This document shows, piece after piece, positions 57,001 through 63,000 of a stretch of 64,000 nt of DNA; the stretch's first letter is position 1; every line of letters begins with the position of its first letter. The DNA is from an uncultured Sulfurospirillum sp. (lineage in GTDB: Bacteria; Campylobacterota; Campylobacteria; Campylobacterales; QNZT01). The position numbers were made by a program. Where the stretch lies: the NCBI GenBank assembly GCA_964573205.1, contig CAZNIT010000026.1, forward strand, positions 1 to 64,000, in the 5' to 3' direction.

Positions 57001-60000
57001 GTTATGGAAAAAGGAGCCGCTCCTTTTTTGCCGATATTTCCGGTAATTAAAGCTAGATTGTTGATAGCGCTTACCGTATCCGTACCGATCGAGCTTTGGT
57101 TCACTCCCATCGTCCACGCGCTCAAGGCTCTGTTCGCACCGGCATAGACTCTAGCGATCTCGTATAGAGTTTTTATGTCGATTCCCGTGATTTGTGCCAC
57201 ATCTTGGGGCGGATATTTTGTTAATATATGTTTTTTAAACTTCTTGTATCCGTTTGTACGCTCTTTTATGAATTTTTCATCTTCCCACCCCTGCTCGAAG
57301 ATGATATAACATAGACCGTTTATAAGAGCCAAGTCGGTTCTTGGTTTGATCGGGACGAAAATATCGGCCATATTCGCGGTTTTGGAGTATCTTGGATCTA
57401 TGACGATGATTGTCGGTTTTTTGCCGGTTATCTTTTTGTTTTTTGCTATATGAAGTTTTAAAATAGGATGGTTGTCGGCAATATTGGCTCCTATTAGCAT
57501 GATCGTATCCGCATGTGAAAAATCTTCATAACTAGCGGGCGGTCCGTCACTTCCGAAGCTATGTTTATACCCCATAACGGCACTTGCCATACAAAGTGTC
57601 GTATTTCCGCAATAGTTGTTCGTTCCAAGCCCGAGTTGGACGAATTTTCCAAGAGTATAAAAATCTTCGGTTAGAAATTGTCCCGTCGATATAACCGCGA
57701 TAGCTTTTTTACCGTACCTTTTTTGAATCTCTTTAAATTTTTCACTTGTGTGTCTAAACGCTTCATCCCATGAGACTTCGGTCAATTTATCCTCTTTTTT
57801 GATCATGGGAGATTTTATTCTATCAAACGAGTGAACCATTTTATGTTCACTAACTCCTTTTGGACAGAGTGTTCCCATATTCACGGGATGAGCCGGATCG
57901 CCTTTGGTATAGACGGCTTTATCATCTTTTACGCCGATATATAGACCGCATCCGACACCGCAGTATCCGCAAGTGGATCGAATCCAGCGCTCGGGTTTTT
58001 TAGCTTTGGCGACTTTACCGAACATCTCATCGTCTATAAGCGCGTATTTGTCGTTTTTTATATCTAAGCCCAAAATTTTTTTTATTTTATCTATCATCGT
58101 TGATTTCCTGCGAAAAAATTTCCCGCTAATCCCTGAGCGGATACTGTAACAAAGAAGAGATACCTTCCTATGATTTCACTCAAAAACGCTCCCGTTACGG
58201 CGATGACAAGAGTAAAAATTGCCGGTATCGTCGCTTTGGAAGCGATCAACACGATCGCGACAATCGGAAAAACAAGCGCAAAGATCGCTAGAGAAAAGAG
58301 ACGAATCTTTTTTAGCTTCGCAAAGTGTTTTTCTAAAAGAGTACGGGATCGATCGAGTTGGTAGAAGAGGGGATCGTCATCTTTTAAATTGCGGTAAAAG
58401 TCGATCTCTTCATAGATGAGATAAAACTGATAAAGTCCGTAAAGCAGGCATAGCGCTAAAATTGCCATAACGCTTCGATCAGCCGAGTTAATTTGCATTG
58501 TAAGTGCCGTAAGCAAAAAGCCTACATAGCCTGTCCCGAAAAATCTTAGGGTTGTCGATTTTCTGTTCCAAGCCGGTCTGGCGGGAACTCGGTAGATTTT
58601 GGATTGCGCATAGATACCGTATAGTCCGATTATCAATACGACCGCCTCGATCGCAGTCATTAAAAAACCGTTTATATCGATTATGTTTTTACTAAAAAGA
58701 ATAGGATATAGATACAAAACGACTATCAATGATACGCCGAGTGCATACGCTCCAAGTGCCGCCGCTTCACGAGAAAGCCATGAAGTTCTTAAATTTTTCA
58801 TAGCGGTTATCGCAAGTGCCGGCCGCCCTAGATGTAGCGCCGAGAGCGGCAAACCTATGCCTGCTGGCAAAAATATCGTCAATGCCAGCCAAAAGTTCGG
58901 TGCGGCCAGGTTAAACCCTAAACTATGTAAAAGCGTTCCCAAAAACATCGCTAAAAAACCGCCGACCGAGATTTGCGTCAAAATTGTCATAAAGATCAGC
59001 GGCCACTCCGGATGGGAAGGTTTTAAAAGTCTCTCATCAGCAGGTTTTACCTCTTTTTCAAACTTCGCAAGAGTATAGCGTGTGGTCGGTTTTGTGATAG
59101 ATATATCGGGTAGATGCGGAGCGACTCCCTCTTTTTCGATTTGACCGTTTAACCACTCATCGGGTCGAAAGATTTCAATCTCGATCGCACCGGCTGGGCA
59201 TGCTTGTACGCAGGCGGGAGTTTGGTTGTTTTCTAGCTTTTGGTGACACATATGACATTTGGTGACGATACCTCTGTCATGGTTGAAAACGGGAACTTCG
59301 TAAGGGCAGTTCCAGGTACAGTATTGGCATCCGATACAAAGATCGTCGTCATGAAATACGATACCGTTATCGAACTTAATATATGAGTTGGTCGGACAAC
59401 CTTTTAGACATTGCGGATCGATGCAGTGGTTGCAACTCATAGAGTTAAAAAGCCGGCTGACATTCGGAAAAGTTCCGGCTTCCATCTCTCCGACTCGCCT
59501 CCATTTGACATCGGGGAGGTTGTTGTTTTGTTCGTTGCAGGCCACTTCGCAGCTGTGGCATCCCACACATGCGCTCATATCGAAATGAAAGCGATACTGC
59601 TCTTTCTCTTTTAAAGGCGGCAGATCTATCTGATAGCTCCCGCACTGCATGGTCGTATCCGCTTTGTATCGGATAAAACTTTCAAGTACCGTTGTATGAT
59701 TCATCTTCTTCCTTACCTCATAATCAAAATGAGTAGATAAATATTTAGTAAAAACGATATGACAAATGCCGTTTTATAAACTCTAAGAGGCTCTTTTTCT
59801 ATAATAGATGCGCTTTTATCATAAAAAGGTTTGACAAATTGCGGATTTTCAAGATCGTAGAGCATTTGAGAATAGTTTTGATAGCGTTGACTTTTATCGA
59901 CCGCAATCGCTCTTAGGATGACACTCTCCAGCCAAGGCGGGATTTTCGGGTTGATCTTTGACGGACTTTTCGGCTTTTTAAAAACCGGTGTTTGAAACGG

Positions 60001-63000
60001 TTCTATCTCTCCGTACGGGAGTTTTCGTGTTAAAGATTCATAAATCGTCACCCCTATGGAAAATATTTCACTCGCTTCATCGATACTATCACCTTTGAAT
60101 CTCTCAGGTGCTAGATAACTTGGAGTTCCCGCACGGGTGAGAGTAGAAAAAATCTCGGTAATTGAGCCAAAATCGACGGTTTTGAAATATGTTTTTCCTT
60201 TCCTTTGCGCTCTGATTATATTATCCGGTTTTATATCCGCATGAACTAGATCATGTTTTAAAAGAAATTGCTCCATATGAAGAAGAAATTTTGCGAGATT
60301 TATACTCTCATCTATCGAAAGGAGTCTGTGTTTTAGGTACTTTTTAAGCTCGTCTCCTCTTAAATGTTCCATCACATAGTAGCGAAGCGTTCTATTCTTC
60401 GGAATGACGGCTTTTGGGAAAAAACCGGCTTTAAGTCTTTTTGCGTTCCACGCCTCTTTGACGAAAAGATCGAGTATTCTTTCGTCACTCAATGCTTCAT
60501 ACGGTGCGAATTTGACCACATAAGAGATACCTTTTTTATCGCATAGCCATGTTCTTTCGTTTTGAACCAGCGGCTTTATAAGTTCGTATCCGTCAACGAT
60601 AGCGCCCGATTTTAATGTTCGTGGGATAGGAAGTTTGAGGGATTTTAGTTTGCAGGTTTGATCTATCTCTTTTATCCGCATGATGACTGCCGTTGTATCG
60701 TCCGGAAGGTTGTCGTTTACTTTTTTACTGGCATATTTTACGAGGTTGTTGGCTCCGGCTATGATGTTTGAAGCGATTTCATCTTCTTTTAGTACGCCGT
60801 AAAGACCGTCCGAACAAAGAAGAATCGTATCATCTTTTTTTATGATGTTCTCAAAATAGTGGATATCGCACTCACCGCTTAATCCTACAGCCGATGTCAA
60901 TACATGATCTAAACCTTTTTCATCACTTTTGTGATCTTTTGAAAGTTGATACAGTTTTCCTTCTCTTTGCAGATAGATACGACTGTCTCCTACATTTGCA
61001 CCATAAAGTCTCTCTCCCTCAACGACGCAGAGTGCGACTGTCGTAACAAGTTCGGTGCTCTCGTATGATTCAAGAGATTCGTTGTAGAGTATAGAATTTA
61101 TATTTTTTACGAAATGTTTGATCGACTTTTCCATACTCCAAGAGATCGGTCTGTTTTGAAGGCTTTTAAGAAGATAGCCGCAAACTCTTTTTGCCGCCTC
61201 TTTGCCCGCTTCGGCACTTCCGACACCGTCACATAAGACGGCGATGCAGAGGTCTTGGAGTCGTTTGTATTCAAAAGCGTCGTCACCCGTCAAGTCGTCG
61301 CTCTTTGCAAGTGAAAATCCCGAAAGCCTGATATTTGTCATTTTAACCTCGATAATAATATACGGACTCTAAAATTAGATTCAGTTTTATATGAACAATG
61401 GTTAAAAATTAGGCACATTAAATTCTTCCTCCAGCCTGTAATCCCCATGTGGTTCTCCATCTGGTTTTTACTAAAGAGATACCGGCAATCGCTATTAATA
61501 CGACCGTTGCGAAGATGATAAATCCCGCTGTATATCCGTCAAAAGCTCCCTTACTCCATCCGAGAGTTTTAATAAGTGCGGTACCGCCAAGACCGCCCGC
61601 ACAGCCTATAATTCCCGTCATTATTCCTATATCTTTACCAAATCTTTGCGGGACGAGCTGAAAAACCGCTCCGTTTGCCATTCCAAGATTTGCCATAATT
61701 AAAAACAAGACTACGATCGCGGCATAAAACGGAAGCTCGATCGTCGCGTTGACGAAGGCCAGGGCTGCGACGGCACCAAAAAAGAAGTAAAGAGATTTGA
61801 TGCCTCCTAGTCTATCCGCGACGGCTCCGCCGACCGGACGAAGTATCGCTCCGGCGAATATGCACAGCGCGCCGAAATAGCCTGCTACGACTTTGACATT
61901 TTCTTCATTTAAAAAATCCACTCCAAAAGTACTCATATCCGCTTGATAACTATTCATAAGATAAACTTTCATATATCCCGCAAATCCGACGAATCCGCCG
62001 AAACTGACCGCATAAAAGAGATTGAACCACCATGTATCTTTATCTCTTAAAAGTTTGAGATAATCTTTTACTTTTTTTGGTCTTGGAGTATATATCTCTT
62101 TGGGGGCGTCTTTTGCCATAAAAAAGTATGTGATCAAGATTATTGTCGAGAGTACCGCTCCAACCAAAAAGACCGATTCCCATCCCCACAATTGCGCAAT
62201 TTTCGGTGCGAACAAAAAGTCTATGACAACGCCGATATTTCCTGCACCGGCAATGCCTAAAACGACTCCTTGAAGCTTGGGAGGATACCACTGTCCGGCC
62301 TGAGGCAGAGCCACCGCAAAGCTAGCTCCCGCAAAACCCAGTATAAACGCTACCATCAAAAGTTCGTCGTATGTGATACTCGCGCCCCTGAAATATGCAT
62401 AATAAAGACCGCCGACGACAACGGTCTGAGCCATAATGGCGGTTTTTTTCGCGCCGATTTTATCAACCGAAAATCCAAGCAGGATTCTCAAGATTGCTCC
62501 GGATAAAATGGGGATTGAAAGAAGTGTCGCTTTTTGTCCAGGCGTCATTATGAAGTCATGGGATAGTTTTAAAGCTTCGGTTATCTCCGTAGAGAGAGGT
62601 CCTAGCATCGTCCAAACCATAAAACTAAAATCAAAATATAAGAATGCTGCCAAAAGTGTGGGCCAGTGTCCTTGTCCCTTAAGTGCTTTTAGTGAAGCCA
62701 TGTAACTCCTTTGTGATCTATTTATGCTTATAGTGTAGCATAATCACGTCAATAGATATACAATATACTGATTAATTATTAAGCAGTTAGTTGTTATTTC
62801 TTCTGAAAAATATTTATTATCTTATGAAACTAAGAGTAAGTACAAAAATTTTACAAAGTATAAAGAATTTTGTGGATATAATATCTGACTAACAAGGGTT
62901 TATGATGAAAATTACATTAAAAGAGATACCGTTTTTTAGTAGTTTAAGCGATGAAAACATAAAAAAGTTGGGGCAGATTTCATGCTTTCGTAACTATAAT

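What the first reader, a model, noticed from the sequence alone, without database searches (positions are those of the whole stretch)
59713..61341. Membrane-anchored PP2C phosphatase / Ser-Thr kinase fusion embedded inside the nitrate-assimilation operon
One polypeptide carries intact PP2C motifs (DGVGS, GDSR, DG) and intact Hanks-kinase motifs (VVK, HADIKPDN, DFG, APE), plus a C-terminal tail anchor. It lies 9 nt upstream of the FeS-membrane gene and 76 nt downstream of narK. Bacterial nas operons are normally controlled by NasR/NasT/NtcA-type factors. A co-transcribed kinase/phosphatase suggests post-translational phospho-regulation of the transporter or reductase. That is reminiscent of eukaryotic nitrate-reductase phosphorylation and is not, as far as I know, a described bacterial arrangement.
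Basis: partly seen in the sequence, partly recalled or inferred. Interest (0 to 1): 0.7.

Follow-up and report, generated by a model that had tools for sequence, protein, structure and literature searches.

The report
Transporter-linked kinase–phosphatase in nitrate operon
A membrane-anchored enzyme that can probably both add and remove phosphate groups sits right after the nitrate-importer gene, here and in many other bacteria; this suggests an untested on/off switch for nitrate uptake, but the gene family is already annotated, so this copy is a new member, not a new kind.

Summary
ORF 59713-61341 (-) encodes a 542-aa protein with an N-terminal PP2C phosphatase, a Hanks-type Ser/Thr kinase and one C-terminal transmembrane helix. 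It lies between narK and the nitrate/nitrite reductase genes. The catalytic residues of both domains are invariant or nearly so in 134 relatives. The kinase is atypical: it has no glycine-rich loop, and HRD reads HAD.

The arrangement is not new. The family, which PGAP names "bifunctional protein-serine/threonine kinase/phosphatase", occurs in Campylobacterota and in Alpha-, Beta- and Gammaproteobacteria.

What my survey adds, and my literature searches did not find described:
- The conserved partner is the transporter, not the reductase. The gene follows a NarK-type MFS, an FNT nitrite channel or an NrtABC transporter, sometimes with no reductase nearby.
- In Proteobacteria the kinase subfamilies track transporter type rather than taxonomy.
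- NarK partners usually carry an invariant cytoplasmic tail, RWRTTWG.

Most likely this is a reversible phospho-switch on nitrate/nitrite uptake. The substrate and the signal are inferred. I found no functional study. Verdict: a new member of a known but uncharacterised family, of moderate interest.

The parts
59713..61341 (-). Whole ORF (542 aa plus stop): tail-anchored PP2C phosphatase / Ser-Thr kinase fusion
   Evidence: ORF list. Pfam and NCBIfam domain matches. AlphaFold2 model with mean pLDDT 89.4.
60667..61341 (-). PP2C (PPM) phosphatase domain, residues about 1-225. Metal-binding residues: D21, D38-G39, D119, D178-G179, D214.
   Evidence: Pfam PP2C_2/PP2C. Aligns to S. aureus Stp1 with DGMGG matching DGVGS and ANVGDSR matching ANVGDSR. 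Foldseek best PDB matches are tPphA, PppA and PstP (TM about 0.8 normalised to the target). These residues are invariant in 134 relatives.
59827..60597 (-). Hanks-type kinase domain, residues about 249-505. Key residues: K277, E296, H367-A-D369, K371, N374, D390-F-G392, T406, A-P-E413. Non-RD, with no glycine-rich loop.
   Evidence: Pfam Pkinase. phmmer to S. aureus Stk1/PknB (E 9e-23) and to StkP and M. tuberculosis PknB. Foldseek matches. Conservation across relatives.
59719..59781 (-). C-terminal transmembrane helix (residues 521-541) with mid-helix Asn533. It follows the conserved juxtamembrane motif E-K-E-P-L-R-V-Y-K.
   Evidence: Hydropathy profile. A C-terminal TM segment is present in 169 of 172 family members. 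All 75 Campylobacterota helices carry an Asn or Asp in the core, as do 57 of 94 others. At the aligned column Asn533 itself is conserved in 89 of 90 Campylobacterota-type sequences and is invariant in alignment A1.
61342..61417 (-). 76-nt narK to kinase/phosphatase spacer, with a GAGG ribosome-binding site 6 nt before the ATG
   Evidence: Sequence read directly. No terminator-like site here on the minus strand. No Rfam match. In relatives the same spacer is 4-249 nt.
61418..62701 (-). narK: NNP-family nitrate/nitrite MFS transporter (427 aa), the conserved upstream partner gene
   Evidence: MFS_1. TIGR00886 NarK family E 7.8e-71, 239 bits, which is below the curated cut-off of 311.7. PDB NarU and NarK at E about 1e-14.
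61442..61471 (-). NarK C-terminal cytoplasmic tail V-K-T-R-W-R-T-T-W-G (residues 411-420): candidate phospho-acceptor or docking site (inferred)
   Evidence: Identical in all Campylobacterota NarK partners and in Methylobacillus, Sulfuriferula, Methylocystis, Azospirillum thermophilum and Skermanella. In a reverse test on metagenome contigs, 78 of 104 NarK genes with this tail had the kinase/phosphatase gene in the same locus.
58094..59704 (-). Downstream gene, 8 nt after the fusion: DmsB-like 4Fe-4S domain fused to a DmsC-like membrane anchor (536 aa)
   Evidence: Fer4_11 and DmsC. TIGR02951 partial match.
55776..58097 (-). NasA/NasC-like molybdopterin nitrate reductase catalytic subunit (773 aa), with no twin-arginine signal
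   Evidence: Pfam Molybdopterin, Molydop_binding and Molybdop_Fe4S4. NasC E 2e-168 and NasA E 1e-153, both below their curated cut-offs. N-terminus read.
53882..55828 (-). NirA-like ferredoxin-type (sirohaem) nitrite reductase (648 aa as called)
   Evidence: NIR_SIR and NIR_SIR_ferr. PRK09566 ferredoxin-nitrite reductase E 3e-102.
62902..63546 (+). Divergently transcribed Crp/Fnr-family regulator: the likely transcriptional regulator of the operon (inferred)
   Evidence: cNMP_binding and HTH_Crp_2. Conserved in the same position in the closest relatives L002-L005 and L008.

Best explanation
**What it is.** The gene encodes a cytoplasm-facing Ser/Thr kinase fused to a PP2C phosphatase, held at the inner membrane by a single C-terminal helix. 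It belongs to a widespread family that forms a two-gene module with nitrate/nitrite uptake transporters.

**How it most likely works.** The two opposing activities set the phosphorylation state of a component of the uptake machinery. The most probable target is the cytoplasmic, membrane-proximal C-terminal tail of the cognate transporter, here NarK ...VKTRWRTTWG. That would switch nitrate/nitrite import on or off quickly, on top of transcriptional control.

**Shown here.**
- The domain architecture and the conservation of the catalytic residues.
- The membrane anchor.
- Operon membership and the conserved linkage to transporter genes.
- That kinase subfamilies in Proteobacteria follow transporter type.

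**Inferred.**
- That both activities are real.
- The identity of the substrate.
- The signal. There is no recognisable sensor domain, so the input is probably a cytoplasmic metabolite or the state of the transporter itself.
- The direction of the effect.
For: **Architecture and catalytic residues**.

**Operon position.** The flanking gaps are 76 nt and 8 nt, with no terminator-like site in either.

**Linkage in Campylobacterota** (69 loci with usable upstream DNA).
- NarK gene directly upstream in 39, and directly downstream in 4.
- NrtC of an NrtABC nitrate ABC transporter directly upstream in 9, and one gene away in 3. NrtB and NrtC score above the TIGR01183 and TIGR01184 cut-offs.
- FNT gene directly upstream in 2.
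- Only 2 loci show no transporter.

**Linkage in Proteobacteria.** All 14 loci examined from cultured isolates have NarK or FNT next to the gene.
- In L085 (Shewanella) the neighbours are generically annotated MFS transporters that only partly match NarK.
- Several loci are isolated transporter-kinase pairs with no reductase: Thioclava, an Acinetobacter plasmid, Azospirillum lipoferum and Methylobacterium.

**Subfamilies follow transporter type, not taxonomy**.
- The FNT-linked protein of A. lipoferum is 57-62% identical to the FNT-linked proteins of Cupriavidus and Methylobacterium.
- It is only 35% identical to the NarK-linked protein of A. thermophilum.

**Dedicated pairing.** One metagenome contig (L139) carries at least two copies (three matched stretches), one beside an FNT gene and one beside narK.

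**Conserved features next to the membrane.**
- The NarK partner tail KxRWRTTWG is invariant across phyla. In the reverse test, 66 of 104 such narK genes are followed directly by the fusion gene and 12 more have it nearby.
- FNT partners end in T-H-x-[RK]-T just after their last helix.
- The anchor helix and the juxtamembrane motif are conserved, including a mid-helix Asn. From general knowledge, such an Asn favours helix-helix contacts within the membrane.
Against: - No experiment exists for any family member, as far as my ten literature searches could find.
- Three structurally unrelated transporter classes would each need their own phospho-site. That fits a co-sensor model, or a shared cytoplasmic target, about as well as direct phosphorylation.
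- The RWRTTWG tail is not diagnostic. 26 of 104 narK genes with this tail have no fusion gene in the DNA available. The Vibrio and Thioclava NarK partners lack the tail.
- The glycine-rich loop is absent throughout the family, so ATP binding and kinase activity are not guaranteed.
- Within Campylobacterota the proteins next to NarK, NrtC and FNT fall into one sequence cluster. Specificity for one transporter type is therefore not evident in this phylum.
Confidence: 0.6

Rival explanations
1. Transporter as co-sensor. The fusion protein contacts the transporter in the membrane and reads its transport state, but phosphorylates something else. Candidates are a regulator (the Crp/Fnr-type protein here, NasT in Proteobacteria), PII, or the reductases. 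In this model the transporter is the input, not the substrate.
For: - The protein has no sensor domain of its own. It has only a conserved helix with a mid-membrane Asn and a conserved juxtamembrane motif.
- It pairs with three unrelated transporter classes.
- In Proteobacteria the subfamilies follow transporter type, as expected if the two proteins make physical contact.
- Regulators lie close by: Crp/Fnr in the window and a NasT-like ANTAR protein directly after the gene in Sulfuriferula.
Against: - No regulator is conserved next to the pair across lineages.
- Isolated transporter-kinase pairs have no obvious target gene nearby.
- A PII gene is absent from the window and present in only 3 of the loci.
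- The invariant Thr-Thr tail on NarK is not explained by this model.
Confidence: 0.2
2. The enzyme phospho-regulates the nitrate or nitrite reductase, analogous to the phosphorylation of eukaryotic nitrate reductase.
For: In the window the gene lies 8 nt upstream of the FeS-membrane subunit and the NasA-like gene. In many loci the reductase genes are in the same cluster.
Against: - The linkage persists where there is no reductase nearby.
- It also persists across non-homologous reductase systems: NirA with FeS-membrane-NasA here, NirBD with NasC-type elsewhere.
- The gene order is transporter then kinase almost everywhere.
- The bacterial bis-MGD enzyme is not homologous to the eukaryotic enzyme and lacks its hinge and 14-3-3 logic (general knowledge).
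Confidence: 0.08
3. The kinase domain is a pseudokinase. In this model it acts as a nucleotide- or ligand-binding regulatory module that gates the PP2C phosphatase, and a separate kinase does the phosphorylating.
For: - The glycine-rich loop is missing in the whole family.
- Pfam matches only the C-lobe part of the profile.
- The HRD Arg is lost in Campylobacterota.
Against: - K277, E296, D369, N374 and D390 are invariant in 134 sequences from two phyla. That is not the pattern of a pseudokinase.
- The HRD Arg is kept in most proteobacterial members.
- The AlphaFold2 model predicts a normal N-lobe with beta1-beta3 and helix C at high confidence.
Confidence: 0.07
4. An unrelated signalling or anti-phage kinase (PD-T4-6-like, MADS or BREX PglW-like) that landed in the operon by chance.
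For: PADLOC PD-T4-6 models match residues 276-500 (best E 1.7e-34). NCBIfam MAD6 and PglW match partially.
Against: - These matches cover only the generic kinase domain and score no better than PknB-type kinases.
- The gene context is conserved in 58 of 69 Campylobacterota loci and 14 of 14 proteobacterial loci.
- GC content does not deviate from the neighbouring genes.
Confidence: 0.02

Closest known systems
PGAP 'bifunctional protein-serine/threonine kinase/phosphatase' family, e.g. Pseudomonas sp. UW4 PpkB (PputUW4_03641) in nasST-nasA-ppkB-nasDEC-cobA. From memory, P. aeruginosa PA1782 occupies the equivalent position.
   Same: - Same three-part architecture: PP2C, Hanks kinase, C-terminal TM helix.
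- Same position directly after the NarK-type transporter gene.
- The window protein aligns collinearly with the P. frederiksbergensis protein, 28% identity over 510 residues, E 1e-66. The alignment runs through the PYGEIExFQ and EPLxV motifs.
- Synteny NasS-like/NasT/NarK/fusion/NirB occurs on Pseudomonas-derived contigs. The UW4 description is in PMC3596284.
   Different: - This is a divergent Campylobacterota branch.
- HRD reads H[AG]D (non-RD), where Pseudomonas has HRD.
- DGVGS replaces ADGVS, and Lys13 replaces the usual residue in motif 1.
- The surrounding pathway differs: NirA with an FeS-membrane/NasA-type reductase and a Crp/Fnr regulator, instead of NirBD/NasC and NasST.
- None of these proteins has been characterised functionally, as far as I could find.
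PknB/PstP, Stk1/Stp1 and PrkC/PrpC pairs of Gram-positive bacteria
   Same: They are the closest solved relatives of each half. Stk1/PknB match at E 9e-23. Stp1, PstP and tPphA are the best matches for the PP2C half. They are also an opposing kinase/phosphatase pair acting on shared substrates.
   Different: - There, the two activities are separate proteins.
- The kinase carries extracellular PASTA sensor domains, a canonical GxGxxG loop and an RD motif.
- The function is in cell wall and cell division, with no transporter linkage.
Phospho-control of eukaryotic NNP-family nitrate transporters: Arabidopsis NRT2.1 C-terminal Ser501 with the PP2C CEPH, and Hansenula Ynt1 with the Npr1 kinase. NRT1.1/CIPK23, often cited alongside them, belongs to a different transporter family.
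   Same: NarK belongs to the same NNP transporter family. A kinase and a PP2C acting on a cytoplasmic tail or loop would be the same regulatory logic. This is a 'works like' comparison only. It rests on general knowledge and on refs 101-102 of PMC3596284.
   Different: - There is no evidence the kinases or phosphatases share ancestry beyond the superfamily level.
- The bacterial tail RWRTTWG has no counterpart that I know of in NRT2.1.
- The bacterial enzymes are fused, membrane-anchored and encoded in the operon.
- Phosphorylation of a bacterial NarK has not been shown.
Cyanobacterial PII-P / PphA (PP2C) control of the nitrate transporters NrtABCD and NrtP
   Same: A PP2C phosphatase takes part in fast, ammonium-responsive control of nitrate uptake. 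tPphA is the top structural match of the PP2C domain.
   Different: - The tPphA score is barely better than those of PppA and PstP, so it has no specific meaning.
- PphA is a soluble single-domain protein acting on PII.
- No PII gene is linked here.
Bifunctional kinase/phosphatases such as HPrK/P and AceK
   Same: One polypeptide carries both opposing activities on a single target, which makes the output insensitive to enzyme amount (a concept from general knowledge).
   Different: The folds are unrelated, those enzymes use a single active-site region, and they are not membrane-anchored or linked to transporters.

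Membership tests
Transporter-linked bifunctional Ser/Thr kinase/PP2C phosphatase family (PGAP name; Pseudomonas PpkB type) | N-terminal PPM/PP2C domain with the metal-binding Asp/Gly set | tested here: met
   Pfam PP2C_2 E 1.2e-17. D21, D38, G39, D119, D178, G179 and D214 are invariant in 134 members.
Transporter-linked bifunctional Ser/Thr kinase/PP2C phosphatase family (PGAP name; Pseudomonas PpkB type) | Central Hanks kinase domain with the catalytic Lys, Glu, Asp, Asn and Asp, and a family-typical loop without glycines in place of GxGxxG | tested here: met
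   K277, E296, D369, N374 and D390 are invariant. The loop reads LVQNERTW here and L[HS]xSxxS in Proteobacteria.
Transporter-linked bifunctional Ser/Thr kinase/PP2C phosphatase family (PGAP name; Pseudomonas PpkB type) | Single C-terminal transmembrane helix preceded by an E-x-x-P-[LV]-x-x-[WY]-[KR] motif | tested here: met
   Residues 521-541 with IEKEPLRVYK before them. A C-terminal TM segment is present in 169 of 172 members.
Transporter-linked bifunctional Ser/Thr kinase/PP2C phosphatase family (PGAP name; Pseudomonas PpkB type) | Full-length collinear homology to named members | tested here: met
   28% identity over 510 residues, E 1e-66, to the P. frederiksbergensis protein. Single-stretch matches covering residues about 30-540 to 540-600-aa proteins. 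Named hits in Sulfurovum, Methylobacillus and Pseudomonas.
Transporter-linked bifunctional Ser/Thr kinase/PP2C phosphatase family (PGAP name; Pseudomonas PpkB type) | Gene adjacent to a nitrate/nitrite transporter gene | tested here: met
   narK ends 76 nt upstream. The same holds in 58 of 69 Campylobacterota loci and 14 of 14 proteobacterial loci.
Transporter-linked bifunctional Ser/Thr kinase/PP2C phosphatase family (PGAP name; Pseudomonas PpkB type) | Kinase and phosphatase activities, and a role in nitrate uptake | not testable with these tools
   No biochemical or genetic data were found for any member (ten literature searches).
Canonical Hanks-type bacterial Ser/Thr kinases (PknB/Stk1 type) | Glycine-rich loop GxGxxG | tested here: not met
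   There are no glycines between predicted beta1 (252-257) and beta2 (264-269).
Canonical Hanks-type bacterial Ser/Thr kinases (PknB/Stk1 type) | HRD catalytic loop (RD kinase) and an extracellular sensor domain (PASTA or similar) | tested here: not met
   The loop reads H-A-D (G or A in Campylobacterota). Only 1-2 residues follow the TM helix. The score against PknB_PASTA_kin is 121 bits against a cut-off of 450.
Canonical Hanks-type bacterial Ser/Thr kinases (PknB/Stk1 type) | VAIK Lys, helix-C Glu, catalytic Asp/Asn, DFG, APE | tested here: met
PPM/PP2C phosphatases (Stp1, PstP, tPphA type) | PP2C fold and motifs 1, 2, 5, 8 and 11 | tested here: met
   Foldseek TM 0.78-0.86 normalised to the target. 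Motif alignment with Stp1. The usual motif-1 Arg is Lys13 here, invariant in the Campylobacterota branch.
Eukaryotic nitrate-reductase phospho-regulation (hinge Ser plus 14-3-3) | Eukaryotic-type Mo-haem-FAD nitrate reductase with a regulatory hinge, and a 14-3-3 partner | tested here: not met
   The reductase here is a bacterial bis-MGD NasA/NasC-like enzyme with an Fe4S4 domain. The kinase/phosphatase also occurs without any reductase nearby. I did not search for a 14-3-3 partner.
Anti-phage kinase systems (PD-T4-6, MADS, BREX PglW) | Full-length match and a defence-gene neighbourhood | tested here: not met
   Only the kinase domain matches, and the neighbourhood consists of nitrate-assimilation genes.

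The most novel reading that the evidence does not exclude
The family is a dedicated, transporter-coupled phospho-switch. Each copy docks through its Asn-containing helix onto its cognate nitrate/nitrite transporter. It then reversibly phosphorylates the membrane-proximal C-terminal tail of that transporter (NarK RWR-T-T-WG; FNT T-H-x-[RK]-T) and so gates uptake. This would be the first case of Ser/Thr phospho-regulation of a bacterial nitrate/nitrite transporter. It would be a bacterial counterpart of plant NRT2.1 control, and a molecular explanation for the rapid ammonium-dependent shut-off of nitrate uptake in non-cyanobacterial bacteria.
Probability: 0.3. Interest if true: 0.75.

Novelty: new member of a known kind. 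Interest (0 to 1): 0.5.

Why it matters
Short-term, post-translational control of nitrate uptake is understood in cyanobacteria (through PII) and in plants and yeast (through transporter phosphorylation). To my knowledge it is not understood in most heterotrophic and chemolithotrophic bacteria.

This family is a concrete candidate for that control:
- It is abundant, occurring in Sulfurovum, Sulfurimonas, Pseudomonas, Methylophilaceae, Acinetobacter plasmids, Vibrio and Azospirillum.
- It is encoded beside the transporter.
- It carries two opposing activities.

The comparative results point experiments at the transporter rather than the reductase. They also supply specific residues to mutate, and they can be tested in genetically tractable Pseudomonas. 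For annotation, the practical message is that this gene should be read as part of the uptake module.

Tried and rejected
   - The only relevant items were the UW4 genome paper and a mention of PA1782 as an uncharacterised kinase (PMC8560001).
   - The P. putida RB-TnSeq nitrogen paper does not mention a kinase.
   - Subscription journals are not covered, so a functional study cannot be excluded.
2. **PII link.** tPphA is the top fold match, but it is barely ahead of PstP and PppA. No PII gene is in the window, and only 3 of the loci have one nearby. I dropped this as a specific lead.
3. **Defence-system reading.** PADLOC matches only the generic kinase domain. Rejected on context.
4. **Leader RNA or riboswitch.** No Rfam match in the operon region. 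No terminator-like site between narK and the fusion gene.
5. **RWRTTWG tail as a strict marker of kinase-linked NarK.** Rejected as strict: 26 of 104 tail-bearing narK genes have no fusion gene in the available DNA, and the Vibrio and Thioclava partners lack the tail. I kept it as a candidate site only.
   - A metagenome scan with the distant-family alignment A2 failed because no block was conserved enough. I replaced it with a DNA pattern scan.
   - The AFDB fold library was unavailable, so P. aeruginosa PA1782 itself was not checked. Its position in the nas cluster is from memory.
   - The listing of cluster members on distant representatives gave few organism names.

Full report
**1. The observation**

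Six genes lie on that strand in this order:
- narK (62701-61418)
- the fusion gene
- a DmsB-like FeS domain fused to a DmsC-like membrane anchor (59704-58094)
- a NasA/NasC-like molybdoenzyme (58097-55776)
- a NirA-like sirohaem nitrite reductase (55828-53882)
- a small secreted protein

A Crp/Fnr-family regulator is transcribed divergently at 62902-63546.

The spacers around the fusion gene are 76 nt and 8 nt. A GAGG ribosome-binding site precedes the ATG. There is no terminator-like site on the minus strand in either spacer, and no Rfam match. GC content is continuous with the neighbouring genes. The window matches a 111-kb contig of an uncultured Campylobacterales organism.

**2. Anatomy of the protein**

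*Domain matches.*
- Pfam finds PP2C_2 and PP2C at residues 16-188, and Pkinase at 319-488.
- NCBIfam gives partial matches to Stp1-type PP2C and PknB-type kinases, far below the equivalog cut-offs.

*Structure.* An AlphaFold2 model built on 46 relatives is confident (mean pLDDT 89.4). Its two halves superpose on solved structures:
- tPphA, PppA, PstP and Stp1 for the phosphatase half
- Stk1 and PknB for the kinase half

*Catalytic residues.* In an alignment of 134 family members from two phyla, the following are invariant:
- PP2C metal ligands D21, D38, G39, D119, D178, G179, D214
- kinase residues K277, E296, H367, D369, N374, D390, G392

K371, T406 and E413 are nearly invariant.

*Two features depart from a textbook Hanks kinase.*
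- There is no glycine-rich loop anywhere in the family. It reads LVQNERTW here and L[HS]xSxxS in Proteobacteria.
- In the Campylobacterota branch the Arg of HRD is Gly or Ala, making it a non-RD kinase.

*Membrane anchor.*
- The only hydrophobic segment is the extreme C-terminus, residues 521-541. The protein is therefore tail-anchored, with both active sites in the cytoplasm and no periplasmic sensor.
- The helix is present in 169 of 172 members. It follows a conserved E-x-x-P-[LV]-x-x-[WY]-[KR] motif.
- It carries a mid-helix Asn/Asp in all 75 Campylobacterota helices and in 57 of 94 others.

**3. The family and its neighbours**

*Size and spread.*
- More than 2,600 proteins match at E <= 1e-10. 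The closest are from Sulfurovum, Sulfurimonas and related MAGs, several of them named "bifunctional protein-serine/threonine kinase/phosphatase".
- An exhaustive search of 50%-identity cluster representatives shows a second large group: proteins of 540-600 aa that align end to end at 25-33% identity.
- A profile of that group retrieves Methylobacillus, Methylotenera, Sulfuriferula and other Betaproteobacteria.

*Campylobacterota loci.* I fetched 80 loci and classified the neighbours by tblastn, with HMM confirmation. Of the 69 loci with usable upstream DNA:

| Neighbouring transporter gene | Loci |
|---|---|
| NarK directly upstream | 39 |
| NarK directly downstream | 4 |
| NarK one gene away | 1 |
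| NrtC of an NrtABC nitrate ABC transporter directly upstream | 9 |
| NrtC one gene away | 3 |
| FNT directly upstream | 2 |
| Transporter elsewhere in the locus | 9 |
| Only a porin-like gene | 2 |

*Proteobacterial loci.* All 14 loci from cultured isolates have a nitrate/nitrite-type transporter gene beside the fusion gene.
- NarK-type: Methylobacillus, Sulfuriferula, Methylocystis, Thioclava, Vibrio, Comamonadaceae, Azospirillum thermophilum and Skermanella.
- FNT: an Acinetobacter plasmid, Azospirillum lipoferum, Methylobacterium nodulans, Ideonella and Cupriavidus.
- Weakest case: Shewanella L085, where the neighbours are generically annotated MFS transporters that only partly match NarK.

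Several of these are bare transporter-kinase pairs with no reductase in the vicinity. The nearby reductases, where present, are not homologous from one lineage to another: NirA with FeS-membrane/NasA here, NirBD with NasC elsewhere. The conserved partner is therefore the transporter, not the reductase.

**4. Evidence for specific coupling to the transporter**

*Subfamilies follow transporter type.* In Proteobacteria the kinase/phosphatase sequences cluster by the type of adjacent transporter and not by host class.
- The FNT-linked proteins of Azospirillum lipoferum (Alpha), Methylobacterium (Alpha) and Cupriavidus (Beta) are 55-62% identical to one another, and 43-44% identical to the Acinetobacter (Gamma) protein.
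- The NarK-linked protein of Azospirillum thermophilum is only 35% identical to that of A. lipoferum.

*Dedicated copies.* One metagenome contig (L139) carries at least two copies (three matched stretches), one next to FNT genes and one next to narK.

*A conserved transporter tail.*
- The NarK partners share an invariant cytoplasmic C-terminal tail, V-K-[TSN]-R-W-R-T-T-W-G. It occurs across Campylobacterota, Beta- and Alphaproteobacteria.
- As a reverse test I scanned metagenome contigs for DNA encoding K-x-R-W-R-T-T-W-G. Of 120 hits, 115 fell at the end of a narK gene.
- Of the 104 with at least 600 bp downstream, 66 were followed directly by the fusion gene, 12 had it elsewhere in the locus and 26 did not.
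- FNT partners end in T-H-x-[RK]-T just after their last helix.

*Limits of these patterns.*
- The Vibrio and Thioclava NarK partners lack the tail.
- A quarter of tail-bearing narK genes have no fusion gene in the available DNA.
- Within Campylobacterota one sequence cluster serves NarK, NrtC and FNT neighbours.

**5. Mechanism**

*Shown:*
- a tail-anchored cytoplasmic protein with two apparently competent, opposing catalytic domains
- encoded in the operon directly after the transporter gene
- a linkage conserved across phyla and across three unrelated transporter architectures

*Inferred:*
- It sets the phosphorylation state of the uptake machinery and so gives fast control of nitrate/nitrite import. 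The most probable substrate is the membrane-proximal tail of the cognate transporter.
- With no sensor domain, the input is probably a cytoplasmic metabolite or the transporter's own state.

I give this overall reading 0.6, and direct phosphorylation of the transporter about 0.3-0.4.

*Rivals:*
- The main rival is a co-sensor model, in which the transporter is the input and something else is the substrate (0.2).
- A pseudokinase reading is disfavoured by the invariant catalytic residues (0.07).
- A chance insertion or a defence kinase is excluded by synteny.

**6. Comparison with what is known**

- The arrangement is already described. The Pseudomonas sp. UW4 genome paper reports nasST-nasA-ppkB-nasDEC-cobA. 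It notes that ppkB, immediately downstream of the NarK-family transporter NasA, encodes a Ser/Thr kinase, and it cites transporter phosphorylation in Arabidopsis and Hansenula (PMC3596284).
- Metagenome contigs with the order NasS-like/NasT/NarK/fusion/NirB carry proteins 92-96% identical to proteins of the Pseudomonas fluorescens group.
- The window protein aligns collinearly with one of these, at 28% identity over 510 residues, E 1e-66.
- PA1782 is listed as an uncharacterised P. aeruginosa kinase (PMC8560001). Its position in the nas cluster is from my memory and was not checked.
- I found no functional study in ten searches. The library does not cover most subscription journals.

In how it probably works, the system resembles:
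- plant NRT2.1 (an NNP-family relative of NarK) with its kinase and the PP2C CEPH
- yeast Ynt1 with Npr1
- bifunctional kinase/phosphatases such as HPrK/P

It is a member of none of those systems.

**7. Verdict**

The window gene is a new, divergent member of a known and annotated but functionally uncharacterised family.

The points from this analysis that my literature searches did not find described are:
- linkage to three unrelated transporter classes
- kinase subfamilies that follow transporter type
- the conserved NarK tail
- the conserved Asn-bearing anchor helix

Together they turn a vague "kinase in the nas operon" into a specific hypothesis that can be tested by mutation. Interest is moderate (0.5).

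Noticed in passing
window 55776-59704 (-): The NasA-like catalytic subunit has no twin-arginine signal. It is preceded by a single 536-aa protein that fuses a DmsB-like 4Fe-4S domain to a DmsC-like multi-helix membrane anchor. This suggests a cytoplasm-facing assimilatory nitrate reductase fed from the quinol pool rather than by ferredoxin or NADH. The FeS-membrane/NasA pair recurs in many Campylobacterota loci and in high-GC metagenome loci L131 and L160.
   Followed up: partly
window 62902-63546 (+): A Crp/Fnr-family regulator is transcribed divergently from narK and is conserved there in the closest relatives (L002-L005, L008). It matches NtcA only weakly (34 bits against a cut-off of 245). 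No NasR or NasT homologue was seen in the Campylobacterota loci.
   Followed up: partly
L021 1998-3275 (+): A second, tandem NarK paralogue carries RWRESEG where the first has RWRTTWG. The Thr-Thr to Glu-Ser change looks phosphomimetic. This is a single example.
   Followed up: no
L139 (metagenome contig, 9.6 kb): At least two kinase/phosphatase genes (three matched stretches) lie on one contig, one next to FNT genes and one next to narK. This fits one dedicated copy per transporter.
   Followed up: partly
L027 7124-7987, L039 74-955, L054 1841-2710: A conserved protein of about 290 aa, with no Pfam or NCBIfam match, sits between nrtC and the kinase/phosphatase gene in some Sulfurimonas-like loci.
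   Followed up: partly
L057 90-1196, L071 6592-7860; also L081 1580-2995 and L124 758-1963: A porin-like gene with weak Alginate_exp matches recurs next to the kinase/phosphatase gene or to nitrate-transport genes. It may be an outer-membrane channel for nitrate or nitrite.
   Followed up: partly
window 55776-55828: The called nirA start (TTG at 55828) overlaps the end of the nasA-like gene by 53 nt. An in-frame ATG 12 codons downstream (Met13, at 55792) would reduce the overlap to 17 nt and may be the true start.
   Followed up: no
window 53469-53819 (-): The last gene of the cluster encodes a 116-aa protein with an N-terminal signal-like sequence and no family match.
   Followed up: no
L083 (Acinetobacter baumannii plasmid p1.36-1512) 5401-8716: On mobilizable Acinetobacter plasmids the FNT-kinase/phosphatase pair sits beside the cyanase gene cynS. 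The FNT there may carry cyanate or nitrite, and the module is spreading on plasmids (12 Acinetobacter records).
   Followed up: partly
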